Source: Caedibacter taeniospiralis
Lineage (GTDB): Bacteria; Pseudomonadota; Gammaproteobacteria; Francisellales; Francisellaceae
Direction of reading: 5' to 3'
Length of the DNA stretch: 32,000 nt
Assembly (NCBI RefSeq): GCF_002803295.2
Contig: NZ_PGGB02000001.1
Coordinates: 1 to 32,000 of the forward strand
Shown: piece by piece, positions 226 to 25,747 of the stretch
How positions within the stretch are numbered: the first letter of the stretch is position 1
Layout of the letters: the number at the start of each line of letters is the position of its first letter
Notes under the pieces: model-generated
Told to the model about the DNA's origin: nothing
The model's database searches: none
The model's input: the letters and a program-made list of their open reading frames with translations, nothing else
Program-made: the position numbers and the translations under genes

Positions 226-1861
<1,636 letters not shown>

Positions 1862-1976
1862 AAGGTACGAGTATGATGTTGAATTTTTAATGTTGAATGT
1901 TGAATTTTTGATGTTTGAAGTACGAAAGAAATTAAGAAAGAGCGAGAAGTATTTGAGTGTTTACAAATGATGTTTT

Positions 1977-2092
1977 TTCTAGAGACTAGAAACTAGAGAC
2001 TAGAAACTAGAAACTAGAAACTAGAGACTAGAGACTAGAGACTAGAAACTAGAATACTTCTAGAAACTAGTCTCTAGTCTCTAGTATCTAGT
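1977..2092. repeat. Tandem CTAG-heptamer tract (about 16 units of ACTAGAA/ACTAGAG, then the complementary TCTAGT units) immediately 5' of tRNA-Ile
   Basis: Direct reading gives TCTAGAGACTAGAAACTAGAGACTAGAAACTAGAAACTAGAAACTAGAGACTAGAGACTAGAGACTAGAAACTAGAATACTTCTAGAAACTAGTCTCTAGTCTCTAGTATCTAGT. The two halves are partly self-complementary. Confidence 0.9.
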
Positions 2093-2169
<77 letters not shown>

Positions 2170-2311
2170 TCTAGAGACTAGTGTCAAGAGACTAGAAACT
2201 AGGGATTGAATCTTGCTGTGCGAGATGATTTTTTAAATGAATCATCGCGAAGCGATTCGAGTCTGGTTTCTAGTTTCTAGAGTAAGCGCAGCGAGCGTTC
2301 TAGTATCTAGA
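2170..2311 (+). mobile_element. CTAG-heptamer palindromic element, ITS copy 1 (142 bp), between tRNA-Ile and tRNA-Ala
   Basis: The sequence is TCTAGAGACTAGTGTCAAGAGACTAGAAACTAGGGATTGAATCTTGCTGTGCGAGATGATTTTTTAAATGAATCATCGCGAAGCGATTCGAGTCTGGTTTCTAGTTTCTAGAGTAAGCGCAGCGAGCGTTCTAGTATCTAGA. It is identical to 2388-2529. Confidence 0.9.
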
Positions 2312-2387
2312 GGGGCCATAGCTCAGCTGGGAGAGCGCCTGCTTTGCACGCAGGAGGTCAGGAGTTCGATCCTCCTTGGCTCCACCA
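2312..2387 (+). tRNA. tRNA-Ala (anticodon TGC)
   Basis: The sequence is GGGGCCATAGCTCAGCTGGGAGAGCGCCTGCTTTGCACGCAGGAGGTCAGGAGTTCGATCCTCCTTGGCTCCACCA. It has a G3:U70 pair, anticodon loop TTTGCAC and an encoded CCA. Confidence 0.97.
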
Positions 2388-2529
2388 TCTAGAGACTAGT
2401 GTCAAGAGACTAGAAACTAGGGATTGAATCTTGCTGTGCGAGATGATTTTTTAAATGAATCATCGCGAAGCGATTCGAGTCTGGTTTCTAGTTTCTAGAG
2501 TAAGCGCAGCGAGCGTTCTAGTATCTAGA
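2388..2529 (+). mobile_element. CTAG-heptamer palindromic element, ITS copy 2 (142 bp), between tRNA-Ala and 23S
   Basis: It is a base-for-base duplicate of 2170-2311, offset by 218 nt. Confidence 0.9.
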
Positions 2530-2535
2530 GCCGAG

Positions 2536-2550
2536 ATCTTTAACAATTTA
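2536..2550 (+). promoter_or_regulatory. boxA-like antitermination element in the spacer upstream of 23S
   Basis: ATCTTTAACAATTTA matches the core of the enterobacterial rrn boxA (TGCTCTTTAACAATTTA). It sits in the expected spacer position. Confidence 0.6.
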
Positions 2551-2729
2551 TTATAGAGTAATGACCAAGAGAATAAGCGCAAACGGCGGATGCCTTGGCA
2601 GTCAGAGGCGAGGAAAGACGTGATAGCCTGCGAAAAGCTTCGGGGAGCTGGCAAATAAGCATTGATCCGAAGATATCTGAATGGGGGAACCCACCTCACT
2701 CATAAAGTGCTCAGCACTTTATTCATTTC

Positions 2730-2762
2730 GAGAAACTAGAGATTGGAAACTAGAAACTAGAG
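2730..2762 (+). repeat. One-sided CTAG-heptamer tract inside an expanded 23S helix-9 region (expansion roughly 2693-2768)
   Basis: GAGAAACTAGAGATTGGAAACTAGAAACTAGAG lies inside a stem closed by CCTCACTC / GAGTGAG. A perfect small hairpin (ATAAAGTGC TCA GCACTTTAT) sits next to it. The region is much longer than its E. coli counterpart. Confidence 0.6.
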
Positions 2763-2837
2763 TGAGTAGAGGGTGTAATTTGTGCATGAATGAGTATTTT
2801 AAGAGTGGGGTATCACTGACGTAAGTTAAGTGAGGCG

Positions 2838-2868
<31 letters not shown>

Positions 2869-3200
2869 TAGGAAAAGAAATCAACCGAGATTCCCTAAGT
2901 AGCGGCGAGCGAAGGGGGAAGAGCCTGGTATACTTTAGCATGTGAGTTAGTCGAACATTCTGGGAAGGATGACCATAGCAGGTGATAGTCCTGTAGACGA
3001 AAGCTTGGATGTGGAACTAGGTATACGAATAAGTAGGGCGGGACACGAGAAATCCTGTTTGAAGAAGGGGGGACCATCCTCCAAGGCTAAATACTACTGA
3101 CTGACCGATAGTGAACCAGTACCGTGAGGGAAAGGCGAAAAGAACCCCGATGAGGGGAGTGAAATAGAACCTGAAACCGTTTGCGTACAAGCAGTCAGAG

Positions 3201-3345
3201 CTAGAAACTAGAGACTAGAAACTAGAGACTAGAGATTAGGGGTTGAAGCGCTTCGCGATGATTAATTTACAAAAATAAATCATCTTGCAAAGCAAGATAC
3301 GACTCCTGGTTTCTAGTCTCTAGTTTCTAGTTTCTAGGAGACTAG
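3201..3345 (+). mobile_element. Intervening sequence / CTAG-heptamer palindromic element at the 23S helix-25 position
   Basis: It is inserted between the conserved GTACAAGCAGTCAGAG and TGATGGCGTACCTTTTGTATAATGGGTCAGCGA. The arms are CTAGAAACTAGAGACTAGAAACTAGAGACTAGAGATTAG and TTTCTAGTCTCTAGTTTCTAGTTTCTAGGAGACTAG. The core is the reverse complement of the 6397-6529 core type. Confidence 0.85.
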
Positions 3346-3765
3346 TGATGGCGTACCTTTTGTATAATGGGTCAGCGAGTTACTTTTAGTGGCGAGGATA
3401 ACTGAATAAGGGATCCGTAGCGAAAGCGAGTTTTAATAGAGCGGACAGTCGCTAGGAGTAGACCCGAAACCGACGCGATCTATCCATGACCAGGTTGAAG
3501 GTTGGGTAACACCAACTGGAGGACCGAACCCGGTAATGTTGCAAAATTATGGGATGAGTTGTGGATCGGAGTGAAAGGCTAATCAAGCGCGGAGATAGCT
3601 GGTTCTCCCCGAAAACTATTTAGGTAGTGCCTTGTGAATGACTCGTTGGGGTAAAGCACTGTTTCGACTAGGGGGATTTTGCGATCTTACCGACTCGATG
3701 CAAACTTAGAATACGACGAAGTTGAATCACGGGAGACACACGGCGGGTGCTAAGGTCCGTCGTGG

Positions 3766-3803
<38 letters not shown>

Positions 3804-3838
3804 GTTATCGCTAAGTGGGAAACGATGTGGGAAGGCAT

Positions 3839-3902
<64 letters not shown>

Positions 3903-3957
3903 GAGTCGGCCTGCGCGAAAGATTTAACGGGGCTAAGCGATACACCGAAGCTGCGGG

Positions 3958-4392
3958 ACTAGAGACTAGAGACTAGAAACTGGAGACTAGAGGAGATAAG
4001 ATGCCGTATCACAATTTATCAGTATATCAGAAGGCATATCAGTTAGCGCTGGAGCTACACGTGGAGAGTATGAAGTGGCCGCGGATAGAACAGTGTGAGA
4101 TTGGGAGTCAATTAAGGCGAGCGAGCAAATCCATATGTGCGAACATAGCGGAAGGGATGGGCAAGCAAGCGAGTGAAAAGGAAGTAAGAAGGTTTGTTCA
4201 GATAGCGATAGGCTCTTGCGATGAATGCCGGGTGTGGCTGGATTTTGCAAGGGACTTAGGGTATATCGATCAGGAGAGTCATAGGGGCTACGATGAGAGG
4301 TATTGCGAAGTTGGGCGAATGTTAAGAGGTATACAGAGAAGATATAGCTGATGTCTATTCTAGTATCTAGTTTCTAGTATCTAGTTTCTAGT
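3958..4392 (+). mobile_element. ORF-bearing intervening sequence at the 23S helix-45 position, bounded by CTAG-heptamer arms
   Basis: It is inserted between CCGAAGCTGCGGG and CGGTAGGGGAGCGTTCTGTAAGC. The left arm is ACTAGAGACTAGAGACTAGAAACTGGAGACTAGAGG. The right arm is TTCTAGTATCTAGTTTCTAGTATCTAGTTTCTAGT. Confidence 0.88.
4001..4351 (+). CDS. 23S rRNA intervening-sequence protein (S23p-type four-helix-bundle family)
   Basis: The 116-aa ORF has family hallmarks: Y.KAYQLALEL, QLRRASKSICANIAEG, IAIGSCDEC and ARDLGYI. A GGAG lies about 7 nt upstream of the ATG. The position inside a helix-45 IVS is the classic context for this family. Confidence 0.85.
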   Translation: MPYHNLSVYQKAYQLALELHVESMKWPRIEQCEIGSQLRRASKSICANIAEGMGKQASEKEVRRFVQIAIGSCDECRVWLDFARDLGYIDQESHRGYDERYCEVGRMLRGIQRRYS

Positions 4393-4946
4393 CGGTAGGG
4401 GAGCGTTCTGTAAGCTTATGAAGGTGCATTGAGAAGTGTGCTGGAGGTATCAGAAGTGCGAATGCTGACATGAGTAACGATAAATAAGTGAGATTCTTAT
4501 TGGCCGAAAACCCAAGGTTTCCTACGCAATGTTAATCAACGTAGGGTAAGTCGGCGCCTAAGGCGAATCCGAAGGGAGTAGTCGATGGGAAACAGGTTAA
4601 TATTCCTGTACCGATGGTAGTTGCGATGGAGAGACGGAGAAAGCTAGGTCTGCCTGGCGGATGGTAGTCCAGGTGAAAGCGTGTAGGTAGTGCACTTAGG
4701 CAAATCCGGGTGTATGATGATCTGAGGCGTGAGAGGGAACAGGGCTCTACGGGGTTCTGCCAAGAGATTGATGCTCGGCTTCCAGGAAAAGCTTCTAAGC
4801 ATAAATTACCATTGACCGTACTGTAAACCGACACTGGTGGGTGGGTAGAGAATACCAAGGCGATGAGAGAACCCAGGTGAAGGAACTAGGCAAAATGACA
4901 CCGTAACTTCGGGAGAAGGTGTGCCTCATTAGGGTGAAGGACTTGC

Positions 4947-5045
4947 CTGACCACTAAATTCTATGATGGATGAAAGCTGTTGAGAGTTGTAGAGATAGAC
5001 AATTTGTTGATAGCCTGTTGTAGGACGTGGAATTTAGTGGTCAGG
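4947..5045 (+). other. Extended hairpin (23S helix-63 variable region) closed by a 15-16 bp perfect inverted repeat
   Basis: CCTGACCACTAAATTC (4947-4961) and GAATTTAGTGGTCAGG (5030-5045) enclose about 68 nt that are absent from the E. coli homologous hairpin. Confidence 0.6.
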
Positions 5046-5185
5046 TGAACGTCTGGAGCGTGAAGAGGTTGCAAATACCAGGTGGCTGCGACTGTTTACT
5101 AAAAACACAGCACTCTGCGAACTCGGAAGAGGAAGTATAGGGTGTGACGCCTGCCCGGTGCTGGAAGGTTAATTGAAGGGGTTAT

Positions 5186-5486
5186 CCTACCACTTAATTA
5201 TTTTGGAGTTTGATATGTATTGTGTATACGTGATTTATTCGAAAGAATTAGATAGTTTTTACTTGTGGGTTATAGTGAAAACCTAAGGAAAAGGATTGAT
5301 TCGCATAAGTCGGGTAGAAGTAGATATACAAGCCGAACGAGAGATTGGATTCTTGTCTACTACGAAGCTTACGCAAGTGAAAAGCTTGCTAGGTTAAGAG
5401 AAGCTAAATTAAAGCGAGCGAATCGAATGAGGAGTTTGTTGTATAAAGGCTTAAGAGAAGAAATATCAGAGTAATTAAGTGGTAGG
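5186..5486 (+). mobile_element. 301-bp insertion in 23S domain IV (hairpin just 5' of helix 69), bounded by a 15-bp perfect inverted repeat and carrying a GIY-YIG ORF
   Basis: CCTACCACTTAATTA (5186-5200) is the exact reverse complement of TAATTAAGTGGTAGG (5472-5486). The flanks GAAGGTTAATTGAAGGGGTTAT and AGAAGCTCTGGATCGAAGCCCCAGTAAACGGCGGCCG are contiguous in other 23S rRNAs apart from a short loop. Confidence 0.85.
5215..5474 (+). pseudogene. Small GIY-YIG nuclease-family ORF (UPF0213/YhbQ-like), frameshifted near codon 17
   Basis: The ATG at 5215 gives MYCVYVIYSKELDSFYLWVIVKT*, which contains the GIY-like strand. The frame from 5265 continues (V)GYSENLRKRIDSHKSGRSRYTSRTRDWILVYYEAYASEKLARLREAKLK, which contains the YIG, Arg and Glu motifs. 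The two parts join only after a 1-nt (or 2-nt) frame correction around 5260-5266. Confidence 0.7.
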
Positions 5487-5509
5487 AGAAGCTCTGGATC
5501 GAAGCCCCA

Positions 5510-5552
<43 letters not shown>

Positions 5553-5553
5553 C

Positions 5554-5591
<38 letters not shown>

Positions 5592-5664
5592 CGATGGCCA
5601 CACTGTCTCCAACTGCGACTCAGTGAAATTGAAATTGCTGTGAAGATGCAGCTTTCCCGCGGCT

Positions 5665-5696
<32 letters not shown>

Positions 5697-6095
5697 CTTT
5701 GCACTGGACTTTGAGAATATTTGTGTAGGATAGGTGGGAGACTAAGAGATTCGTACGCTAGTATGGAAGGAGTCGACGTTGAAATACCACCCTGATATTT
5801 TTGGAGTTCTAACTCAGACGAGAGTCGAGGACAGTGTATGGTGGGTAGTTTGACTGGGGCGGTCTCCTCCTAAAGAGTAACGGAGGAGTACGAAGGTGCA
5901 CTCGGCGCGGTCGGAAATCGCGCCAAGAGTATAAAGGCAAAAGTGCGCTTAACTGAGAGAGTGACGGCTCGATCAGGTACGAAAGCATGCTATAATGATC
6001 CGGTGTTTTTTTTTGAATAAGACATCGCTCAACGAATAAAAGGTACGCTAGGGATAACAGGCTTATAAATTCTGAGAGTTCCTATTAAAGAATTT

Positions 6096-6130
<35 letters not shown>

Positions 6131-6341
6131 TGGTGCAGAATCTGCCAAGGGTTTGGCTGTTCGCCAATTAAAGTGGTACGTGAGCTGGGTTTAAAACGTT
6201 GTGAGACAGTTTGGTCCCTATCTGTTGTAGAATTAAGAAACGAGGCTGAGATCGACGCCAGTACGAGAGGACCGACTAGAACTAGCCTCTGGTTCGGCAT
6301 CTATTTCAACAAAGGCATAGCCCAGTAGCTACGTTCGGAAT

Positions 6342-6374
<33 letters not shown>

Positions 6375-6396
6375 AGCCTCAAGATGAGATCTCCCG

Positions 6397-6529
6397 TCTA
6401 GAGACTAGAAACTAGAGACTAGAAACTAGGAGTTGAGTCTTGCTTTGCAAGATGGGTTGTTTTTTATAAATCAATTCATCGCGAAGCGATTCAAGCTCTA
6501 GTTTCTAGTCTCTAGTTTCTAGTCTCTAG
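6397..6529 (+). mobile_element. Intervening sequence / CTAG-heptamer palindromic element at the 23S helix-98 position
   Basis: It is inserted between AAGATGAGATCTCCCG and TTAAGGGTTGTTGAAGACTACGACGTTGATAGG. The arms are TCTAGAGACTAGAAACTAGAGACTAGAAACTAGG and CTCTAGTTTCTAGTCTCTAGTTTCTAGTCTCTAG. The core contains the hairpins CTTGCTTTGCAAG and CGCGAAGCG. Confidence 0.85.
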
Positions 6530-6668
6530 CTTAAGGGTTGTTGAAGACTACGACGTTGATAGGCTGGCTGTAGAAGTGCAGTAATGTATGAAGCTAACCA
6601 GTACTAATTGCCCGAGAGACTTGGTTATTACTCTATGATAGATTGTTAGAGCTTTCTGCTCGCAGGTT

Positions 6669-6784
6669 ACCTGATGAAAATAGCGACTGTGAACCACCTG
6701 ATTCCATTCCGAACTCAGAAGTGAAAACAGTTAGCGTCGATGATAGTGTGGCATTCGCCATGTGAAAGTAGAACATCATCAGGT
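6669..6784 (+). rRNA. rrf: 5S ribosomal RNA
   Basis: The terminal stem is ACCTGATGA...TCATCAGGT. The conserved CCGAACTCAGAAGTGAAA block is present. It lies directly 3' of 23S. Confidence 0.9.
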
Positions 6785-15585: not shown

Positions 15586-15793
15586 ACCGTTTTCGCCCTG
15601 TGCGGCAGTGAACGCTTCAATATTTATCTTATTAATTTCATTATTTTTCTAAGCTGCCTGTACGGCAGTGGACTAAAGAAGATATAGCTGCTAAAAAAAT
15701 AGCAATTTCTAAGCTGCCTGTACGGCAGTGGACAACAACCTTCATATGTGGGGCTTCCGCAATCTTTTCTAAGCTGCCTGTACGGCAGTGGAC
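15586..15793 (-). CRISPR. Type I-F-style CRISPR array: 4 repeats of 28 nt (the trailer-most one degenerate) and 3 spacers of 32 nt
   Basis: The minus-strand repeat GTCCACTGCCGTACAGGCAGCTTAGAAA sits at 15646-15673, 15706-15733 and 15766-15793. A degenerate copy GTTCACTGCCGCACAGGGCGAAAACGGT sits at 15586-15613. The periodicity is exactly 60 nt. The repeat closely matches the I-F consensus GTTCACTGCCGTACAGGCAGCTTAGAAA. Confidence 0.9.
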
Positions 15794-15939: not shown

Positions 15940-16855
<916 letters not shown>

Positions 16856-17080
16856 AGCATAGAAAATGGTACTTGATTTTACATACGTTCTGTACGTAAA
16901 TTCGCTAACCTACGCTTCCATTGCATCTATGCAGGTGACAAAATATCATATTGACACATAAACACAAGTAGAAATATACCCGCCAACCCCATTGGCAAGT
17001 AATGAGGACAAGTGGTTAGCGCACAAGTAGTTATACTTTTGAACTGTTAAACATCGAGCTTGCAGAATTCACGGGGAAAT

Positions 17081-17374
17081 TTATAACAACAGCACCGACT
17101 TAAACACATCTGCAACTGCCTTAGCGCCATAGTGTTCTATTTTATTGCGACCATTTTTGCCCAATTTGTAAAAACGCAGGCTATCCATTTCTGGATCATA
17201 ACTATCCAAAAGTTTCATTTTCAACACACACCATTGATCGGGGCTTATGTCACATTCAAATACTGAGTTTTGCACCCTAACCCCATAATCCTGACAGGTC
17301 TCTGCAATTTTTCTTAAACGCCGAACGCCAGTTTCTTCCTTCAGTGATACATCATAAGTGATTAAAATAAGCAT
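17081..17374 (-). CDS. cas2: CRISPR-associated endoribonuclease Cas2
   Basis: The 97-aa product begins MLILITYDVS and contains VQNSVFEC. It is the last cas gene before the array. Confidence 0.9.
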   Translation of the reverse strand: MLILITYDVSLKEETGVRRLRKIAETCQDYGVRVQNSVFECDISPDQWCVLKMKLLDSYDPEMDSLRFYKLGKNGRNKIEHYGAKAVADVFKSVLLL

Positions 17375-17460: not shown

Positions 17461-18703
17461 CTATTTAGGCATAAATGGTGGGTAAGCATCCAAGTCACCT
17501 CTTAAATGCCGCGCCAATAAAAGTGCCTGAACATGTGGCAATAACCCGATTTGCACCTCTTCACCCAAAAATGGGTGTTGGATCGTTTCCTGCTTACGGT
17601 CGCTGCGAGCCATGGAGAGCGGAACGCGAGGGCGAGTAGACCCGGGTAGCCTTGCGCTGTTGATCAGCAAGCGACGTGCCGAAGGCGCCAGAGCGAAGTC
17701 TGTGAAACAGCTTTTACCCAAGGCGTAGAGTAGAATCCCGGGCAAAATTTATACCGCCGAGGATAGCCGATTCGATTTTGTGTATGGATATACAAAATCT
17801 ATCATGAGGCCCGAGGCACCCTATTTGTAAAGTTACAAGCAATAGTTTTCTGGTATCATCCTTGAGTTTTACAGAACCACCCACTTCAATTTCAAAGTCC
17901 TGAGGTTTCACTTGACGTCGATTAATTAAACTCAACACCATACGATCAACAAACCAGGCACGAAACTCCTCCAAAATATCTTGTGCCAAACTATCTCTAC
18001 CGGGGCGCACTTGATGAAGAAATCCCATCTGTGGATCAAGCCCAACCCCCTGCAAAGCAGCACTGATGTCATTACCGACGACGCTATACAAAAATGATAG
18101 CATTGCATTTACAGGATCTAATGGTGGACGACGACTACGAGTATTAAATTGAAAATCTGTCCGAGCCACAGGTAGGATTAATTCATTAAAAACACCAAAG
18201 TAAGCAGATGCCGCCTCGCCTTCTAAACCTAAAATAAGCTCTAGACTTTGTGCTTTTTGCAAGCGGCGAAGTGCATAGCTTATTTTCTCAATGGCATTTT
18301 CGACTTCGCTATTTTGGTCATGATTTCGCACCCTACGATAAAGTACCGCACGAGATGAATTAAGCTTGGCAGCAATAACATTTCTGGCAATAGCCACGGG
18401 ATTGAGCTCGGCTATTTTATACTGTGTTTTACGCAATATAACATTACCATTTTGTCTACCATGCAATCGTCCAAGAAAACGTCCATACTCGGTAAAGAAA
18501 GCAAGGTGAACATTGTTTTCACCGCAAAATCCCAGTAAGAAGGGGGATAGCATTACATTGCCAAAACAGTAAATTGCCTGAATAGCATGAATAGGTAACT
18601 GCATTACTTTCTGCTTTGCGACTTCAATAACAAGCGTTTCACGTTCTTTGTGCAAATAAGCGCCCTGCCTAGTAATGTAAAGGGTGTTTTGTAATTTCTT
18701 CAA
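17461..18703 (-). pseudogene. cas1: cas1 (type I-C) interrupted by a 220-bp element at 17601-17820
   Basis: The upstream piece (18703-17821) ends ...DDTRKLLLVTLQ(I). The downstream piece (17600-17464) reads (D)[45 protein letters not shown]. Deleting 17601-17820 gives one 340-aa ORF of typical Cas1 length and C-terminus. Confidence 0.9.
17601..17820 (-). mobile_element. GC-rich non-coding insertion element, copy 1 (220 bp), inside cas1. On the gene's sense strand it reads GGTGCC...GCAGCG
   Basis: It shares a ~70-nt left module and a ~104-nt right module with 19747-19934 and 23600-23803. It has no ORF. Boundaries come from a three-way alignment and are good to about +/-3 nt. Confidence 0.85.
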
Positions 18704-19338
18704 TCCAAATCCTCCCTGAAAAGAGCATTAACATACAGCTGACTTTTATCTTTGAACGTCAACTTTGGATTACATAAATCATATAAGGAACAGGCATTAC
18801 ACTTTTTTTCATATTTAACTTTCGGTGTAACACCAGCCTGCAACAAAAGACGCGTTTCATCAACAATCTGTAAAGTCTCATCACGTAAAGCCTTCGTTAA
18901 TTCAACATCAATTCGGTGACGACTTTGCCAATACCACATTGCTGCGCGAGGAATGACTGTATTAAGCATCTCTTCCAGACACAACGCCTGCGCGCACAAC
19001 TGCACAAGATCAATATGATCTTCCTTAGGTTTCCCACGTTTATACTCAACAGGAAAACATGAACCTGTTTTAGTATCAAGTTCAACAAGGTCAAGCTTGC
19101 CAATCAACCCAATCTTAGGCGCTGATACATGCACACCACGTTCATAACGTATACCTTTACGCGTCTCAGGCACCCCGCTATCCACTCGCTGATGCAACTG
19201 CTGTCCTTGTGCGGTCAACCAATTCTCAGCCCATGCCTGCTCATTGTGAATAAGAGCGCATTGCCTGGGGCAGAAAGCATAGTGTTGCAAAGCAGAGAGG
19301 GGGATCAGGAGAGAATCGTCCAATTTAAAATCCATCAA
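18700..19338 (-). CDS. cas4: CRISPR-associated exonuclease Cas4
   Basis: The 212-aa product has an N-terminal Cys (YAFCPRQC) plus a C-terminal CNACSLYDLC cluster, and the RecB-like motifs (DLVE, EYKRGK). It overlaps the cas1 start by 4 nt. Confidence 0.88.
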   Translation of the reverse strand: MMDFKLDDSLLIPLSALQHYAFCPRQCALIHNEQAWAENWLTAQGQQLHQRVDSGVPETRKGIRYERGVHVSAPKIGLIGKLDLVELDTKTGSCFPVEYKRGKPKEDHIDLVQLCAQALCLEEMLNTVIPRAAMWYWQSRHRIDVELTKALRDETLQIVDETRLLLQAGVTPKVKYEKKCNACSLYDLCNPKLTFKDKSQLYVNALFREDLD

Positions 19339-20349
19339 TTATTTCAGGCTTAAGACCTTCAAGATCAGCAAGTGAGAAACTTCCATCAGGATTCACCGTT
19401 AACGATCGATGTACTTTTGCTGATGAGTGTTGCCCCGATCTGGAATTATGCAGCCACCAGATCAGTTTTTCCACCGCCATGGAGCCTTCTGGTCTTGCAG
19501 AAGAAGCATCACCCTCAAACAACTTTGGGAATATAGATTTTATGGTCTCTGCATCCGCATCGCTAAAACCAGTTTTTTCGGCTAGCTGCGGCGACATCGC
19601 GCCATAGGCAACGTAAACAGCAGTATCGACTCTGTGTTTCATACCCATGGTATCGGAACTTTTTTTACTGCCATCGCCATCACCACTAACACTTTTGGTA
19701 ATTTGCGTACTGGTAATGCTTACTGGCTCAATACTGAAAGCCGTAGGGTGCCTCGGGCCTCATGATAGATTTTGTATATCCATACACAAAATCGAATCGG
19801 CTATCCTCGGCGGTTTGGATAAAGCTGTTTCACAGACTTCGCTCTGGCGCCTTCGGCACGTCGCTTGCTGATCAACAGCGCAAGGCTACCCGGGTCTACT
19901 CGCCCTCGCGTTCCGCTCTCCATGGCTCGCAGCGAATGAATACTCACCGGACCACGGATAGGAATTGATACCCCATCCTTTTCTTCACTTTTAAAAGCAA
20001 ATAGTTGTCCAAAAGCACGCACATCGAACCAAGTTTCACAAGCTTTTTTTGCAGCAGTTTCTGGCTTGATTTTTTTAGCGTTTAAAACATCTTTACCTAG
20101 CACACCTTCAGCCCTGGCTCGAAGACTGTGATATTCATCCGTCTTCTTTTCATCTGACTGAACAAAAATAGCCTGGCCCGCATCTTGGAGGCGATCTCTT
20201 GCTTTTCGCTTCAAACATACATCTGTAACTTCGCCAAAACCATCATAATCTGTACGTGGCCGGTTACCATTTAAAGGATCACCGTTCGGATTAGCGTTTT
20301 TTACGGAAAAAATAATGGCGAAATCGATTTTTTTGCTCAGTGAATTCAT
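19325..20349 (-). pseudogene. cas7: cas7 (csd2, type I-C) interrupted by a 188-bp element at 19747-19934
   Basis: The N-terminal piece reads MNSLSKKIDFAIIFSVKNANPNGDPLNGNRPRTD...GVSIPIRGPVSIH. The C-terminal piece reads (T)AFSIEPVSITSTQITKSV...MGMKHRVDTAVYVAYGAMSPQLAEKTGFSDADAE.... Deleting 19747-19934 yields a single 278-aa ORF. Confidence 0.9.
19747..19934 (+). mobile_element. GC-rich non-coding insertion element, copy 2 (188 bp), inside cas7 and inverted relative to copies 1 and 3
   Basis: The plus strand reads GGTGCCTCGGGCCTCATGATAGATTTTGTATATCCATACACAAAATCGAATCGGCTATCCTCGGCGGT...CACAGACTTCGCTCTGGCGCC...CCATGGCTCGCAGCG. This is the reverse complement of the plus-strand reading of the other two copies. 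It lacks the ~32-nt central segment of copy 1. Confidence 0.85.
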
Positions 20350-20475: not shown

Positions 20476-22365
20476 TTATCTTTTGAGGAAGCGAGTAAAA
20501 GCATCACAAATATCGTCCAACAATCTGTTGTAAGCAGCCTCTAAAGGTGGCAACTTAACACGTAACCGCTGTTGATATGGAGTCAAAGCTTCGCGAATAC
20601 TCTGCCAAGTTGATACCGGATGATGAGCAAAACGCTGCATTAAACGACTAGCATGTGTAGTGCGATTTTTTTCTCCCGCAATAGATATTGCCATTTCCTC
20701 AATCATTTCAGCTACTGCCAGCAGCCGCCCAAATAGATAATCCCGCCCTGTATATTTCATATCAAGTGACATAGCATATTCTCTCCTTTTATTTAAATTG
20801 GGTTGGCGTTCTGGGTGGTGAAAACCGCGATAGAGCGCACAGGCGACACCAAGGTTTCTCTCCCATTCCCAAAGTTCACTGTTGTTTCTGTTGCTGGCTC
20901 GACTGACAGCCAGGTTGACAATATCCATAGGTAAAGCTCTGCCTTCCAAAATACAGGGCATCATCCTTTCATAAAGGCTCTTTTTAAGCGCTTCATTGCT
21001 TTTCACCATATCACCATAGGTAGCTTGCAATATATTCCAAGGTGAAGGAGCACTGACAGACCAAAACACTGTTGTTTTTGGCTTTTTATTATTACCTGAC
21101 TCGACTTCCTTGCTAATCCGCTGCGGCCAAGCCAAATGGCTGTGCCATTTTTCGATAGTTTGCACGTAATCCTTAGCCATAAAATCGCGATAATAAATAA
21201 TCGCCATACGTCCAGGAGTGGCAGAGTCCAGCCCCATAATAACGATGCTTTCCTGATCCTTGAGTCTGGCGATGCGACCATCGAAATAACCTGCCATGTA
21301 TCGATTTAACGCTTTGACAAAGTTTTGTCCAAGGTCGCTCGTTACATTAATTTCAGTAGCCAATGAATCTTTTCCATCATCAGTAACTTCCTCGAAATTG
21401 TCCAGCTCCAGACTTGGCACCAATGGAGCAGGGATAGGTTTGCCTGATACTGCCCATGCCACCACCACCTGATCTCCATTCTTGCTAGCCTGATTAGCAA
21501 TCAGCCAACGCAATGTATTATGAGCTTTTTGGGTAATATCAAAACCGACGTTCGCAACCTGCTCTCCATCTGTAAATCGACCACGGAAAGTAAAGCCGGA
21601 TGTATCATTGGCTGATACCAGCTTTGCTTTATCACCTGTATGTCTAAGCTTTGCGGGATGATTTGAGGCTGAGGGTTGCAATAGTCCAGATACATAACAA
21701 AGCTCATCCTTCCCTGAACCTTCGGCATCAAAAGCTATCCATGACTGTTGTATTGATTTATCTTTCCAAGTATCTGGAAATAGGTCGCCTGGAGTAATAA
21801 CACTCCAGCAAACCATTGCGTTACCCTGATCCAGTTCGCCTTTTTCCTTCGGTAGGGTTTTGAATATTAAAGGCAAAGGATTTTCATCTGTTACCTCAAA
21901 TGGCCAAGAGGTTAAAAGCCGATTATTTTCATCCATATAACAAACTTTAGCGTTTATTAGATCTTCTATCACAGTCTGCTTAATGATGTAATTGCATACC
22001 GCTTGAACCTTTGGATGACTCACGCCAGAGTTACACCATTCTCTGATTTGTGACCGATATCCATCGAAATAAGGTTTTTTCTTCCCACCGAACTTTTCAT
22101 AGTCGGCTGCAACATATTGCAGCTTGTCCGCTAAAGGGTGTGGTGCTTCGCCACTACTTCTTCCTGCAGACTTTTCTGTAGATGGCAAAATGATCTGCGT
22201 CTTTTCTAAAACTTTTGCACCTATAAAATTTCCATCAAGATCTATTTGAATATTTATATGGGCATTCTGCATAGTATGGCTTGTCGGCATTAGCTGCTTT
22301 TCTTCCGGCAAATCCAGCGTCATAGCTTTTTCATAGGTCTCGTAAAGCTTTGCCATCCAGCTCAT
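20476..22365 (-). CDS. cas8c: Cas8c (Csd1), type I-C large subunit
   Basis: This is a 629-aa intact ORF between cas5 and cas7, in the canonical I-C position and size. It overlaps the cas5 stop by 4 nt. I have no specific motif check beyond context and size. Confidence 0.75.
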   Translation of the reverse strand: MSWMAKLYETYEKAMTLDLPEEKQLMPTSHTMQNAHINIQIDLDGNFIGAKVLEKTQIILPSTEKSAGRSSGEAPHPLADKLQYVAADYEKFGGKKKPYFDGYRSQIREWCNSGVSHPKVQAVCNYIIKQTVIEDLINAKVCYMDENNRLLTSWPFEVTDENPLPLIFKTLPKEKGELDQGNAMVCWSVITPGDLFPDTWKDKSIQQSWIAFDAEGSGKDELCYVSGLLQPSASNHPAKLRHTGDKAKLVSANDTSGFTFRGRFTDGEQVANVGFDITQKAHNTLRWLIANQASKNGDQVVVAWAVSGKPIPAPLVPSLELDNFEEVTDDGKDSLATEINVTSDLGQNFVKALNRYMAGYFDGRIARLKDQESIVIMGLDSATPGRMAIIYYRDFMAKDYVQTIEKWHSHLAWPQRISKEVESGNNKKPKTTVFWSVSAPSPWNILQATYGDMVKSNEALKKSLYERMMPCILEGRALPMDIVNLAVSRASNRNNSELWEWERNLGVACALYRGFHHPERQPNLNKRREYAMSLDMKYTGRDYLFGRLLAVAEMIEEMAISIAGEKNRTTHASRLMQRFAHHPVSTWQSIREALTPYQQRLRVKLPPLEAAYNRLLDDICDAFTRFLKR

Positions 22366-23066
22366 AACGATGCCTCCTCTGTATCCACATCCAGCAAGTT
22401 ATCTCCGATAACAAATTCTTTAGCTTTCATCTCACGAATAAAACGACGAATTTCGCAACTCCCTGGTCTTGGAAATTCCACAACACCATTTTTCATAACG
22501 GCATGCCAAAAACGGCTATGAAATTCATCTTTTCCCGTCTCGTCCGGGTAATCGAAACCATGAAACATCAAACCAAACGATAGCTCATCAATGTTGTCAT
22601 AGGCTCCAAGACCTTCTCCAAATTCGCAAGGCTCTACATAACCCTGGCAATCTCTTACACCAAGAAAAATATCTTGCCGCCCACCCTTTTCCAGCATGCG
22701 CTTTGCGATAGCAAAATGTTTTCCATCAATTTGATCCGCTGCCAATTCAGGACGATACTTGTTCATTTCAAAGTGTGCCTCTACCTGATACTCAACTTCG
22801 TGCAGAAAGGTATATATAGCCAAGCTATTTCCACCACCCCAAACCAGAGGTTTAGTGCCTTTGGTTTGAGTTCGAATGGACTTTATTACCCGAACCCTAT
22901 CCACATGCCAAACGATAGTTGGTTTCTAATAGATTGACTTGAGAACACCCTTAATCGCCTCATAAGTAGGCACATGGTAAGAGCATTTTTCCCCACCAAT
23001 CCTGGTAATTGGGTCGGTAAATAAAGCGTAACGTCCCCAAAGTCTGAAACTAATAATGTTTTTCAC
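22362..23066 (-). pseudogene. cas5: cas5 (cas5d, type I-C) with an in-frame TAG at 22926-22928
   Basis: The minus strand reads ...[28 protein letters not shown].... Cas5d proteins have a conserved (A/S)IYWKP here, so the TAG replaces TGG (Trp). The likely start is the GTG at 23066, preceded by AGGAGG. The N-terminus [19 protein letters not shown] is typical of Cas5d. Confidence 0.85.
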
Positions 23067-23074
23067 GTTACCTC

Positions 23075-25747
23075 CTATAAAATCTGAGTTGTCATCATAC
23101 CTACGCACTCGGTTCCAAGACCAAAACTTTTGCTGTAATACATCTCATCCAGGTAGTAAATGCCATGCCCAGGCTGAATTTCGTGCACTGCTTTCTCCTT
23201 TTTTAGTTTGTCCCAAACGTTAGGAAAGACATTCACGCTATATTTTTGCGCTTGTCGTAACAATTGATAGTAGCGACGAGCATTAAACTCCTTTGCTACA
23301 GAGCAAAGCTCAGCTACCAGCTTTTGCCCCTTCTTACCATATTGTACAATGACTGCCTGGGTTGGAGCGTCGATAGCCTTAAACTGTTTACCCGCCTCCA
23401 TAAAAGCCTGTCGCAAGAGGGGGACTTTCCCTTCACGATCAGAAAAATTTGAATTACATCCGATGCGAGAACTTAACAGGTTGAGCAAACTATCGTTCCT
23501 GTGATCTTTTCCTTTCAAGGGGTAGCTCATATCATCTGCTCGATCAAAAAAATAATAGCGAAAATACTGCTTGATCGCTGCCGGTGACAATACATCTTCC
23601 GCTGCGAGCCATGGATAGCGGAACGCGAGGGCGAGTAGACCCGGGTAGCCTTGCGCTGTTGATCAGCAAGCGACGTGCCGAAGGCGCCAGAGCGAAGTCT
23701 GTGACGTTGAGGCGGACGGCCCGGGCAAAATTTATACCGCCGAGGATAGCCGATTCGATTTTGTGTATGGATATACAAAATCTATCATGAGGCCCGAGGC
23801 ACCCTTGTACCCTTCAGAAAGAACCCTCTTCGCCTTCTCTTTGCCTATTTCAATTTCCTTCAGCATTCCTGTACTTTCACTGTCCGGGTTCACAATAAAA
23901 ACCTGCCCTTTGATCAAATTTCCTTGCTCATCTTTCAGATTGCCATTCCTATTACAGCGTCCTGCAGCCTGAGCAATAGAGTCCAAACCTGCCAAGAAGC
24001 GTATCACAGATGCAAAGTCCACATCAACGCCTGCTTCAATCAGTTGCGTTGAGATACAAAGCACGGGCTTTCGATGCTTCAGGTGCTTCTTAATTAGATA
24101 TAGGAAAATCCTGCGATGACGCGGACATTGATTTGTACTTAAATGGAATAAAGACGATGCATTCACCTGCTCGACACAACGTTGATACAACTCCTGCGCC
24201 CATGTTTTGGTGTTGACAATTACCAAGCAACTCCCGTGTATCTGGAGCTGCTCTACCGCCAGTGTAGATATCTCTGCGACATTCCAACCACCAGGCTTTA
24301 TTTGGTTATAAATACGTACCCGCCGAAGCTCAATAAAATGCCTATCAAAGTCGCCTGCCAGTTCATTTTCTTGGGGAATGACTAACTGCCCTTTATCAGG
24401 TTTTTTTAATTCGTTCAGTAAAGGCTGAGTCGCTGTACAAAGCACTACCGTAGTATCGCAACGCTGCACGAAAAAATTCATTGCGTTACAAAAAATATGC
24501 ACACAATTAATTGGCAATGTCTGAATCTCATCAAAAACAAGCACACTTTTAGCTAACTGATGCAAACGCCTAACACCTTTGGTTCCACCACTAAACAAGG
24601 TTTCCAGTAACTGCACCATAGTGGTCAGAACAATGGGAGCGTCCCAGTTTTCCGATACCAGTTTGGCGTGCCAGGTTTGCTGTTCAGACTCCAAATTAGA
24701 GTGATGTTCCAATACCCACGACCTAGCATCATCTCGATGCTCTACCACTTCGCGTATCACCTTAGCATTTTGCTCAATGATAGACGTGTATGGGATAACA
24801 TAGATAATACGCTCCAATCCGTGATGCTGAGCATGATGTAAAGCGTAACGTAAACTGGCGTAAGTTTTACCTCCACCTGTTGGTACAGTTAGCGTATAAA
24901 GCCCTTGGGACTTATACGCGTTACTCTTACAGTTATCGGAAATTTCCCGACGCAATTCATCTACATAGTTTCGCACTGACAGCCCCGAAAGATAATTTTC
25001 CAAGCGACCAATAGCAACGTCCCAATTAATTGATCCTGACTTTCCTAGGCGCTCTTTTAATCTGACAGGATCTTCAAACTCAGCGCTATTGAGTCTGTCA
25101 GCATCAATTAGGCAACTGAACAAAAAGCGGGTGAAAAATCCCAGGTTAAAGTAATCGATCATCGATGGCTTTTCAAAATTGACAAACTCTTTCAGTTTAT
25201 CAAACAGACCTTTTACCAACTCAACATTTGCAATTTGCTCAATTTTATCAAGTATCTCTTTCTCTGCGACCTGCCGACACTCGTCAAGGTTTACTTTCTC
25301 ATCAGCCTTACTCATACGATCAGAAAATACAGGCTTATCATCAATTCCAAAACAATCGATTAAACCACTGTGATGAGAGGCAATACATAAAGCCAGCATT
25401 TGACCACACAGCTCTCCTTGCCCAGCACCACCAATACGTTTCAGCTTCTGCCAAACCAAGTGAGCACCTGCTGTTGAGTGATCGACTTTCCCTTTCATCC
25501 CTTTAGCATCAACATAATCATCCTCATCAGGGTTAATTTCACCTGTAGCTGACTTTATATAGCGTTGAAACTCTTGGCTGTACTTTCCGAAATCATGCAA
25601 CAAACCAAGCAACCTGCCAGCATTTTCCGCACCCATTTTACTGGAAAAGGTACTAGCAATCTCTCCAACCTCATACAAATGAGTATGAAGAAACTGACAT
25701 TCTCCATCAATTTTTCTTTTGTGTGCAATAAATTTAGGCTTACTCAT
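23075..25747 (-). pseudogene. cas3: cas3 (HD nuclease plus SF2 helicase, type I-C) interrupted by a 204-bp element at 23600-23803
   Basis: The N-terminal HD motif (LLGLLHDFGKYS), Walker A (TVPTGGGKT), DEIQ box and later helicase motifs (AAGRCNR) are intact. The upstream piece ends ...RVLSEGYK. The downstream piece reads (E)DVLSPAAIKQYFRYYFF.... Deleting 23600-23803 gives an 822-aa ORF. Confidence 0.9.
23600..23803 (-). mobile_element. GC-rich non-coding insertion element, copy 3 (204 bp), inside cas3, in the same orientation as copy 1
   Basis: It has the same left and right modules as the other copies. Its central segment is ATAAATTTTGCCCGGG plus the unique stretch CCGTCCGCCTCAACGT. The length is a multiple of 3, but the element carries an in-frame TAA (23732-23734). 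Confidence 0.85.

What the first reader, a model, noticed from the sequence alone, without database searches (positions are those of the whole stretch)
17601..17820. cas1 is split by a 220-bp GC-rich non-coding element, and exact removal restores a 340-aa Cas1
The Cas1 reading frame runs cleanly to ...LLVTLQ(I). It resumes 220 nt later in a different frame at (D)[14 protein letters not shown]...YPPFMPK.
The intervening DNA has no ORF and is visibly GC-rich in an AT-rich gene. My hand count of the right module is roughly two-thirds G+C. It recurs in cas7 and cas3.
Neither Cas1 fragment carries any other lesion. The insertion is therefore either recent or removed in some way.
I see no target-site duplication and only weak, gapped terminal inverted similarity ((A)GGGTGCCTCGGGCCTCATGA versus the reverse complement of the other end, CGCTGCGAGCCATGGA). 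An AT-rich subterminal hairpin (ATTTTGTATA TCCA TACACAAAAT) lies about 25 nt from one end. These features recall IS200/IS605-type or IS110-type derivatives more than classical TIR/TSD MITEs.
Basis: partly seen in the sequence, partly recalled or inferred. Interest (0 to 1): 0.8.

Follow-up and report, generated by a model that had tools for sequence, protein, structure and literature searches.

The report
Hairpin-ended mobile element splitting cas1
The cas1 gene of this Caedibacter-type endosymbiont is broken by a 223-bp non-coding mobile element that also breaks cas7 and cas3. The element belongs to an apparently undescribed family, with no inverted ends and no target duplication, that is shared with Piscirickettsia and Legionella and is helping to destroy an already decaying CRISPR system.

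Summary
The insert is 17601-17823 (223 bp, not 220). Removing it gives a 339-aa Cas1c that aligns without gaps to 339-aa homologs.

Near-identical copies, differing only by internal deletions, split cas7 (19744-19934, opposite orientation) and cas3 (23600-23806). cas5c also has an in-frame TAG, so the I-C operon is decaying rather than being rescued by splicing.

The element is one of a family of 51 to about 450 nt found on Caedibacter plasmid pKAP298 (5 copies) and in Piscirickettsia salmonis (37 left ends on one 188-kb plasmid). It also occurs in Legionella species, gammaproteobacterial MAGs and metagenomes.

- **Left end:** the 17-mer CGCTGCGAGCCATGGAG, used as the search pattern, folds into a conserved imperfect hairpin.
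- **Ends:** there are no terminal inverted repeats and no target duplication; three P. salmonis empty sites match exactly.
- **Target:** insertion falls three bases after a C (59 of 60 sites), usually TC.
- **Coding:** no copy carries an ORF, and no Rfam family matches.

The most likely mechanism is trans-mobilisation as single-stranded DNA by an HUH transposase (IS200/IS605-like or IS91-like). The enzyme was not found, so this step is inferred.

I file it as a new variant of a known kind.

The parts
17601..17823 (+). Element copy A (223 nt) interrupting cas1. The left end is CGCTGCGAGCCATGGAG... and the right end is ...GAGGCACCCT plus one variable base (A).
   Evidence: The junction residue N matches the homologs only in this register.
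17603..17637 (+). Left-end imperfect hairpin. The outer stem is CTGC/GTAG with a G.T wobble, followed by tandem GA/GA, a GCC/GGC stem, and an inner mini-hairpin GCG-GAA-CGC.
   Evidence: The outer part is invariant across taxa. The inner stem changes sequence but keeps its pairing (GC, GCC, GCG, GGC, CTT, GGCC, GTGC).
17775..17800 (+). AT-rich subterminal hairpin GATTTTGTGTAT-GG-ATATACAAAATC, with a G.T wobble on this strand, about 23 nt from the right end.
   Evidence: The homologous hairpin with a different sequence in P. salmonis and Legionella is shown.
19744..19934 (-). Element copy B (191 nt) interrupting cas7, in the opposite orientation relative to the gene compared with copies A and C. 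It carries a larger internal deletion.
   Evidence: The repaired Cas7 matches Csd2.
23600..23806 (+). Element copy C (207 nt) interrupting cas3, with a different internal deletion. Its terminal variable base is T.
   Evidence: The repaired Cas3 is 821 aa with HD and helicase domains.
17461..18703 (-). cas1 (type I-C), split by copy A.
19325..20349 (-). cas7/csd2, split by copy B.
23075..25747 (-). cas3, split by copy C.
22362..23066 (-). cas5c with a premature in-frame TAG at 22926-22928 (Trp codon 47 changed to stop).
   Evidence: The ORF after the stop covers profile positions 50-203. Read-through as W covers 1-203 of 203 at 248 bits.
17596..17600 (+). Target motif of copy A (ACGGT, with C at -4). 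The corresponding flanks are TCATT for copy B (minus strand) and TCTTC for copy C.
16491..16855 (-). Type I-C CRISPR array (six 33-nt repeats) next to cas2 (17081-17374).
   Evidence: (family D6).

Best explanation
The 223 bp at 17601-17823 are a DNA insertion of a non-autonomous transposable element. This part is shown.

**The family**
- Every member recovered carries the 17-nt left end CGCTGCGAGCCATGGAG, which was the search pattern. This end is part of a conserved imperfect hairpin.
- The right end carries a subterminal hairpin and a short tail.
- The interior is dispensable and GC-rich, and has been whittled down by deletions at microhomologies.
- The element has no terminal inverted repeats, makes no target duplication, and inserts exactly three bases downstream of a C (usually TC).

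**Likely mechanism (inferred)**
- The element most likely moves as a single strand, the strand that reads 5'-CGCTGCG.... That strand carries the G.T wobbles, the tandem G.A pairs and the GNA-type triloop mini-hairpin.
- An HUH-type transposase supplied in trans would cut and rejoin it. Candidates are a Y1 enzyme of the IS200/IS605 or RAYT type, or a Y2 enzyme of the IS91 type.
- The enzyme would recognise the end hairpins and cleave next to the flank motif.

**State of the window**
- Three copies have landed in cas1, cas7 and cas3 of a type I-C operon that also has a nonsense codon in cas5c.
- The insertions are therefore recent knock-outs in a defence system that this obligate endosymbiont is losing. 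They are not a regulated or reversible interruption.
For: **Mobile insertion**
- Three window copies are 98-100% identical in unrelated genes and in both orientations.
- pKAP298, an independent record, carries five copies.
- One P. salmonis plasmid carries 37 left ends. Further copies lie in Legionella, MAGs and metagenomes.
- Three P. salmonis empty sites match the joined flanks at 100% over 120 nt, which shows exact boundaries and no TSD.
- Frame and full-length Cas1, Cas7 and Cas3 are restored only by removing the core plus 1 nt.

**Target**
- C occupies -4 in 59 of 60 sites and in 25 of 26 complete sites.
- T occupies -5 in 18 of 26 sites.
- No position on the right flank is conserved.

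**Only the ends are needed**
- Variants run from 51 to 292 nt with intact ends, and no copy has an ORF.

**Single-strand signature**
- The outer stem of the left hairpin has a G.T wobble and tandem GA.
- The inner 2-4 bp stem carries a GAA, GGA, AAA, TAA or GCA triloop, and its sequence covaries between taxa.
- The right hairpin has a G.T wobble on the same strand.

**Lead towards a Y1 enzyme**
- The right-side hairpin of family member L019 is 20/20 identical to a hairpin flanking a Y1_Tnp gene in L145. That contig comes from a close Caedibacter relative.
- L131 and P. salmonis have the same CTCGG...CCGAG hairpin foot.

**Decay of the operon**
- cas5c has an in-frame TAG.
Against: - No transposase gene was found between or beside matching ends in about 1.15 Mb of fetched DNA. 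No Y1 gene lies in any element-bearing locus.
- The two IS91 lineages of P. salmonis have different ends and a CAAG/CTTG flank. Their resemblance to the element's ends is not above shuffled controls.
- The left and right hairpins of the element differ from each other, unlike typical IS200/IS605 ends.
- The flank motif is only one or two conserved bases, set three bases back from the joint. This is looser than known IS200/IS605 or IS91 targets.
- Orientation along the P. salmonis plasmid shows no clean replication-linked bias.
- The last base of the Caedibacter copies varies (A, T or G). This is unexplained.
Confidence: 0.5

Rival explanations
1. The element is moved by a recombinase of another or an unknown class, acting on double-stranded ends. 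Candidates are a tyrosine or serine recombinase, a DEDD/IS110-type enzyme, or a new enzyme. Under this reading the hairpin-forming ends are protein-binding sites, not single-strand structures.
For: - No HUH partner was found.
- Tyrosine recombinase genes are present on pKAP298, the P. salmonis plasmid and the L. antarctica plasmid.
- A motif of the type CCNRGGTAG occurs in direct orientation near both ends.
- Weak subterminal inverted similarity recalls IS1111-type ends.
Against: - Tyrosine, serine and IS110 recombinases normally leave a shared core at both junctions or use long specific targets. Here the joints are exact, there is no repeated core, and the targets are almost random.
- IS110 relatives of the only adjacent fragment have an unrelated left end.
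- G.T wobbles and GNA-triloop mini-hairpins sit on one strand only, which fits a single-strand substrate.
Confidence: 0.25
2. The insert is an intron-like element, or is otherwise removed at the RNA level or by regulated DNA excision, so the cas genes stay functional.
For: - Each of the three interrupted genes is otherwise intact and is restored exactly by removal.
- The element is GC-rich and structured.
Against: - Copy B is in the opposite orientation relative to its gene.
- No group I intron, group II intron or ribozyme family matches, even at E up to 10.
- Fold energy is not exceptional: z = -1.7 and -0.6.
- Internal deletions of different extent are tolerated.
- cas5c has a nonsense codon, so the operon is defective anyway.
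- The same family sits in intergenic DNA, in IS elements and in transposase genes.
Confidence: 0.04
3. The three hits in one cas operon reflect targeted inactivation of CRISPR-Cas by the element, not neutral accumulation.
For: - All three copies in the 32-kb window lie inside the 8.7-kb cas operon.
- Only one other lesion was found in the operon.
Against: - At the pKAP298 density of 5 copies per 49 kb, about 0.9 copies are expected in 8.7 kb. My own Poisson estimate puts the chance of three or more at roughly 0.06.
- The rest of the window is largely rRNA and housekeeping genes, where insertions would be lost.
- The three targets share nothing beyond the generic C at -4.
- Elsewhere the family lands in unrelated genes.
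Confidence: 0.08
4. The insertion is an assembly artefact.
For: It is a high-copy repeat of the kind that confuses assemblers. Draft P. salmonis and Legionellaceae contigs often break inside it.
Against: - Each of the three copies has unique flanks on both sides and its own internal deletion.
- The truncated 329-aa Cas1 ORF is present in a public Caedibacter taeniospiralis record (P0123).
- The same element is in the independently deposited plasmid pKAP298.
Confidence: 0.02

Closest known systems
IS200/IS605-derived non-autonomous elements (palindrome-associated transposable elements, PATEs)
   Same: They have no terminal inverted repeats and no target duplication. They are strand-specific, with subterminal hairpins at both ends, and insert flush against a short conserved flank motif. 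They are small and non-coding, and only the ends are required.
   Different: - The left and right hairpins are unlike each other.
- The flank motif is a single C (usually TC) set three bases back, not a full 4-5 nt motif.
- No parent IS with a TnpA and the same ends was found.
IS91/ISCR rolling-circle elements and Helitrons (Y2 HUH)
   Same: - The ends are asymmetric: one is very highly conserved, the other is looser with a subterminal hairpin.
- They have no TIR and no TSD.
- A flank motif abuts one end only. In P. salmonis IS91 this is CAAG on the transferred strand, which also has C at -4.
- IS91 transposases are abundant in P. salmonis and present in L. antarctica.
   Different: - The ends of the two P. 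salmonis IS91 lineages examined do not match.
- IS91 target tetranucleotides are fully specified.
- No IS91 gene was seen in the 32-kb window or on pKAP298; the rest of the Caedibacter genome was not available.
REP/REPIN elements mobilised by single-copy RAYT (Y1) genes
   Same: They are abundant hairpin repeats with no internal transposase gene. GTAG-containing motifs sit next to the hairpins. A single-copy enzyme supplied in trans would explain why no autonomous copy was found.
   Different: REPINs are symmetric pairs of inverted REPs and are extragenic. This element is asymmetric, up to about 450 nt long, and inserts into genes. No RAYT gene was linked to it.
Rickettsia palindromic elements and Coxiella QMITE1/QMITE2 (PMC5896051)
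   Same: They are small repeats that invade the genes of obligate or facultative intracellular bacteria.
   Different: - RPEs insert in frame and are translated.
- The QMITEs have terminal inverted repeats and direct repeats (abstract of PMC5896051).
- This element has neither feature and disrupts reading frames: its lengths of 223, 191 and 207 nt are not multiples of 3.

Membership tests
Classical MITE (DDE-derived) | Terminal inverted repeats | tested here: not met
   Only weak, gapped, offset similarity exists between the ends.
Classical MITE (DDE-derived) | Target-site duplication | tested here: not met
   Joined flanks equal the empty site at 100% over 120 nt in three cases. The cas frames are restored without any duplicated bases.
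IS200/IS605-derived PATE | No TIR, no TSD, and subterminal hairpins on one strand | tested here: met
   The G.T wobbles lie on the CGCTGCG strand only.
IS200/IS605-derived PATE | Insertion immediately 3' of a fixed tetra- or pentanucleotide | tested here: inconclusive
   C is at -4 in 59 of 60 sites and T at -5 in 18 of 26. Positions -3 to -1 are only weakly biased.
IS200/IS605-derived PATE | Left and right hairpins alike, and shared with a TnpA-encoding parent IS | tested here: not met
   The left and right hairpins differ. No Y1 gene lies in the element-bearing loci. The only lead is a 20/20 hairpin match between L019 and the hairpin next to the Y1 gene in L145.
IS91 / rolling-circle family | Y2 transposase element with the same ori and ter ends | tested here: not met
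   The ends of P. salmonis IS91-A and IS91-B differ. Alignment scores are not above shuffles. Other lineages were not tested.
IS91 / rolling-circle family | Conserved tetranucleotide abutting one end only; no TIR or TSD | tested here: inconclusive
   Conservation is one-sided, but only C at -4 is fixed.
IS110/IS1111 family derivative | Long specific target, with a core dinucleotide at both junctions | tested here: not met
   Targets are diverse and no core is repeated.
IS110/IS1111 family derivative | Non-coding end shared with a DEDD transposase element | tested here: not met
   The IS110 fragment near L019 has relatives (L138, L141) whose left ends do not match the left-end profile.
Group I or group II intron, or other ribozyme | Match to the catalytic RNA model, and one orientation relative to the host gene | tested here: not met
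   Rfam gives no hit at gathering threshold or at E up to 10. The cas7 copy is antisense to its gene. The pKAP298 group II intron is a separate element.
Type I-C Cas1 (host gene) | End-to-end match of the repaired ORF to Cas1c | tested here: met
   TIGR03640 positions 1-339 of 340 at 482 bits. The alignment to 339-aa homologs has no gaps.

The most novel reading that the evidence does not exclude
This is a new class of bacterial transposable element. It is hairpin-ended, lacks TIRs and TSDs, and needs almost nothing from its target (one C three bases upstream). Its enzyme would be either an HUH transposase with unusual, relaxed target recognition or an enzyme not yet linked to transposition. 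The element spreads horizontally among intracellular bacteria of protists and fish (Legionellales and Thiotrichales).
Probability: 0.2. Interest if true: 0.75.

Novelty: new variant of a known kind. Interest (0 to 1): 0.5.

Why it matters
- **Annotation:** in the protein database, the public Caedibacter taeniospiralis protein named Cas1c (P0123) is the 329-aa ORF that runs into the element. The genome paper also describes the I-C system as a phage defence. In fact four of its seven cas genes are broken.
- **Genome decay:** the element is a major and recent agent of gene disruption in an endosymbiont. In the fish pathogen P. salmonis it is very dense, about one copy per 5 kb of a plasmid. It breaks draft assemblies and supplies false start codons.
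- **Mobile-DNA biology:** the family has a left end identical across two orders, a minimal target requirement and no visible transposase. This gives a concrete case for finding either a relaxed-specificity HUH transposase or a new enzyme.

Tried and rejected
**RNA families**
- Rfam at gathering threshold and at permissive E-values found no family. I searched the window, pKAP298 and 13 other loci.

**Group II intron**
- pKAP298 has one at about 39.3-41.06 kb, next to an element copy. It is unrelated in sequence.

**IS110**
- An IS110-type C-terminal fragment lies 530 nt downstream of the L019 copy.
- Its relatives in Wolbachia-like and L. israelensis genomes have different left ends. I rejected this idea.

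**IS91**
- The L. antarctica copy sits exactly at the stop codon of an IS91 tnpA. It is nevertheless a complete insertion with its own two ends and a TC target.
- The apparent sharing of the right end with a P. salmonis IS91-B copy is one IS91 copy abutting an element remnant. The other copies lack it.
- Similarity between the ends judged by eye was not significant against shuffles.

**Search for an autonomous copy**
- I scanned 188 kb of a P. salmonis plasmid. All complete copies are about 288 nt. Every 'long' case is an element interrupted by IS6, IS30 or another IS.
- tblastn with IS200 TnpA and with the L145 Y1 protein found nothing in the element-bearing loci.
- tblastn against plasmids gave no close Y1 homolog.

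**Other checks**
- Orientation along the plasmid against GC skew was patchy and inconclusive.
- The promoter and terminator scan found nothing inside the element.
- My metagenome scan used a 14-nt spacer, which is too short for most members, so it returned only 8 loci.
- Literature searches for the end sequence, for P. salmonis MITEs and for non-autonomous elements found no description.

Full report
**1. What is at the site**

The cas genes lie on the minus strand:

| Gene | Coordinates |
|---|---|
| cas2 | 17081-17374 |
| cas1 | 17461-18703 |
| cas4 | 18700-19338 |
| cas7 | 19325-20349 |
| cas8c | 20476-22365 |
| cas5c | 22362-23066 |
| cas3 | 23075-25747 |

A six-repeat I-C array sits at 16491-16855.

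Translation of cas1 runs cleanly to ...LLVTLQ, enters foreign sequence, and resumes in another frame at [10 protein letters not shown].... The foreign stretch is 55% G+C against 41% for the flanking cas DNA, and its left 100 nt reach 65%.

The same sequence recurs at 98-100% identity at 19744-19934 (reverse orientation, in cas7) and at 23600-23806 (in cas3).

**2. Exact boundaries**

The three copies share a left block that starts at CGCTGCG and a right block that ends at GGCACCCT. They differ only by internal deletions relative to the 290-292-nt copies on plasmid pKAP298.

In all three genes the reading frame is restored only when the conserved core plus exactly one further base is removed: 223, 191 and 207 nt.

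- For cas1 the three possible 223-nt registers give N, I or D at the joint.
- Nine close Cas1c homologs have T, T, N, N, N, N, N, A and Q there. Only 17601-17823 is therefore compatible.
- This register matches the left boundary proved independently in P. salmonis.

The repaired Cas1 is 339 aa. It covers TIGR03640 positions 1-339 of 340 at 482 bits. It aligns without a single gap to 339-aa homologs at 87% and 85% identity.

Repaired Cas7 and Cas3 also give full family matches.

**3. The operon is decaying**

The cas5c ORF after its first stop covers only profile positions 50-203. Upstream and in frame there is a good Shine-Dalgarno sequence, a GTG start and 46 Cas5 codons, followed by TAG at 22926-22928 where the family profile continues.

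Reading the TAG as Trp gives profile coverage of 1-203 out of 203, and the score rises from 164 to 248 bits.

Four of the seven cas genes are therefore broken. The genome paper treats the system as a working defence. In the protein database, the public Caedibacter taeniospiralis protein named Cas1c is the 329-aa truncated ORF (P0123).

**4. The element is a member of a widespread family**

| Source | What was found |
|---|---|
| Caedibacter taeniospiralis plasmid pKAP298 | Five copies; this also identifies the window's organism |
| P. salmonis plasmids | A diverged homolog |
| Species-representative genomes, pattern CGCTGCGAGCCATGGAG | Dozens of P. salmonis loci, many Legionellaceae MAG contigs, Legionella sp., L. 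drancourtii, other gammaproteobacterial MAGs, plus chance hits in GC-rich genomes |
| Viral contigs | P. salmonis copies |
| Metagenomes | Further diverged members |
| L. antarctica plasmids | Old, diverged copies |
| One 188-kb P. salmonis plasmid | 37 left ends |

Complete members range from 51 nt to about 292 nt, with longer metagenomic members up to about 450 nt. Shorter ones are internal-deletion derivatives whose breakpoints fall at short repeats. No copy contains an ORF.

**5. Anatomy**

*Left end.*
- The 17 bases used as the search pattern are present unchanged in every member recovered.
- Together with GG(C/T)GAGTAG about 20 nt downstream they form a hairpin. Its parts are a CTGC/GTAG stem containing a G.T wobble, a tandem GA/GA mismatch and a GCC/GGC(U) stem.
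- Inside sits a 2-4 bp mini-hairpin with a three-base loop. The stem is GC, GCC, GCG, GGC, CTT, GGCC or GTGC depending on the lineage. The loop is GAA, GGA, AAA, TAA or GCA.
- Several lineages carry GCGAAGC. From my own knowledge, this is the classic very stable DNA mini-hairpin.

*Right end.*
- It carries a longer hairpin, AT-rich in Caedibacter and P. salmonis, followed by 5-30 nt.
- In P. salmonis, L019 and L131 the foot of this hairpin is CTCGG...CCGAG.

*Strand.*
- The wobble pairs lie on the strand that reads 5'-CGCTGCG. On the other strand they would be A.C mismatches.
- No Rfam family matches, and predicted folding energy is unremarkable.

**6. How it inserts**

Three P. salmonis insertions have uninterrupted paralogous sites. 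In each, the left flank joined to the right flank matches at 100% over 120 nt. There is therefore no target duplication, and the ends are exactly CGCTGCG...CTTACG.

- Across 60 different left flanks, position -4 is C in 59.
- Among 26 complete insertions, -4 is C in 25 and -5 is T in 18.
- Positions -3 to -1 are weakly A/T-biased, and nothing on the right flank is conserved.
- The three window copies follow the rule, with flanks ACGGT^, TCATT^ and TCTTC^.
- The last base of the Caedibacter copies varies (A, A, T, A, G, G, T, A). I cannot explain this.

**7. Mechanism**

These features fit transposition of one DNA strand by an HUH enzyme supplied in trans:

- exact joints;
- no inverted ends;
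- a one-sided flank requirement;
- strand-specific imperfect hairpins;
- tolerance of any internal deletion.

Two sub-models remain.

*Y1 (IS200/IS605 or RAYT type).*
- For: L145, a contig from a close Caedibacter relative with intact cas1 at 85% identity, carries a Y1_Tnp gene flanked by CTCGG...CCGAG hairpins.
- One of those hairpins is 20/20 identical to the right-side hairpin of family member L019.
- Against: the element's two hairpins are unlike each other, and no Y1 gene lies in any element-bearing locus.

*Y2 (IS91 type).*
- For: the ends are asymmetric, IS91 is abundant in P. salmonis, and the IS91 flank is CAAG, which also has C at -4 on the transferred strand.
- Against: the IS91 ends I could define do not match.

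The enzyme is therefore inferred, not shown. I put about 0.5 on an HUH mechanism. I put about 0.95 on the plainer statement that this is a trans-mobilised, non-autonomous DNA element.

**8. Alternatives tested**

- **Intron or RNA-level removal.** This is contradicted by the antisense copy in cas7, by the variable internal deletions, by the lack of any ribozyme match and by the cas5c stop.
- **IS110-type.** The targets are diverse and no core is repeated. IS110 relatives of the only adjacent fragment have unrelated left ends.
- **Targeted attack on CRISPR.** This is not needed. At plasmid density about 0.9 copies are expected in 8.7 kb, and the rest of the window is largely rRNA and housekeeping genes.
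- **Assembly artefact.** This is unlikely because each copy has unique flanks and its own deletion, and pKAP298 is an independent record.

**9. Novelty**

Searches of the paper library found no description. I searched for the end sequence, for P. salmonis MITEs, for Legionella MITEs and for non-autonomous elements. The Coxiella QMITEs differ: they have TIRs and direct repeats.

I file the element as a new variant of a known kind, a hairpin-ended non-autonomous element. It is not a member of any named family, because the defining test (shared ends with a transposase-encoding parent) was not met for IS200/IS605, IS91 or IS110.

Noticed in passing
window 226-6784: The rRNA operon is much longer than the Rfam models: 16S spans 1636 nt against a 1533-position model, and 23S spans 4066 nt against 2925. 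The insertions are hairpins built from tandem heptamers (CTAGAAA/CTAGAGA and their complements). They lie in 16S near model position 80, at several places in 23S, and in the spacers around the two tRNAs.
   Followed up: no
window 15646-15793: A second, orphan CRISPR array of three 28-nt repeats (Rfam CRISPR-DR4) has no cas genes of its own nearby; the next genes are purM and others. The genome paper appears to describe this three-repeat array, not the six-repeat I-C array at 16491-16855.
   Followed up: partly
window 22926-22928: An in-frame TAG in cas5c replaces a Trp codon. It is a fourth lesion in the I-C operon and is independent of the element.
   Followed up: yes
window 17714-18703; protein P0123: The public protein named 'type I-C CRISPR-associated endonuclease Cas1c [Caedibacter taeniospiralis]' is the 329-aa ORF that runs into the element.
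   Followed up: partly
window 17601-17615 (minus strand); L002 3005-3017; L027: The reverse complement of the left end reads ...CC ATG GCT CGC AGC G and opens an outward ORF (M-A-R-S-...). Gene callers use this ATG as a false start codon for downstream fragments. Examples are the Cas1 C-terminal piece here, a P. salmonis IS91 fragment, and an ORF in a Legionellaceae MAG.
   Followed up: partly
L121, L144, L156, L157 (P. salmonis plasmid NZ_CP038894): The element is itself a frequent landing site for IS6 (ISPsa2), IS30 and other IS elements, and it in turn lands inside IS6, IS91 and Tn3-family genes. The plasmid is a dense mosaic of nested mobile elements.
   Followed up: partly
L122 (pKAP298) 39300-41058: A group II intron (RT ORF 39601-40626, domain V-VI at 40945-41058) lies immediately beside an element copy (38854-39145). 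Its 5' part looks truncated or disturbed.
   Followed up: partly
L145 4304-8501 and 14724-15173: In a close relative with intact cas1, cas2, cas4 and cas7, the I-C operon is instead truncated by a Tn3-family transposon inside cas8c. The same contig carries an IS200-like Y1 gene with CTCGG...CCGAG hairpins. Near-identical genes (about 91% amino-acid identity, P0243) lie next to photolyase-type genes in several marine metagenome contigs, with an adenine glycosylase gene upstream in the longest one.
   Followed up: partly
window 16741-16869: The two spacers of the I-C array nearest cas2 share a duplicated stretch of about 19 nt (ATGATAACACAATGTTTCC) (family D3).
   Followed up: no
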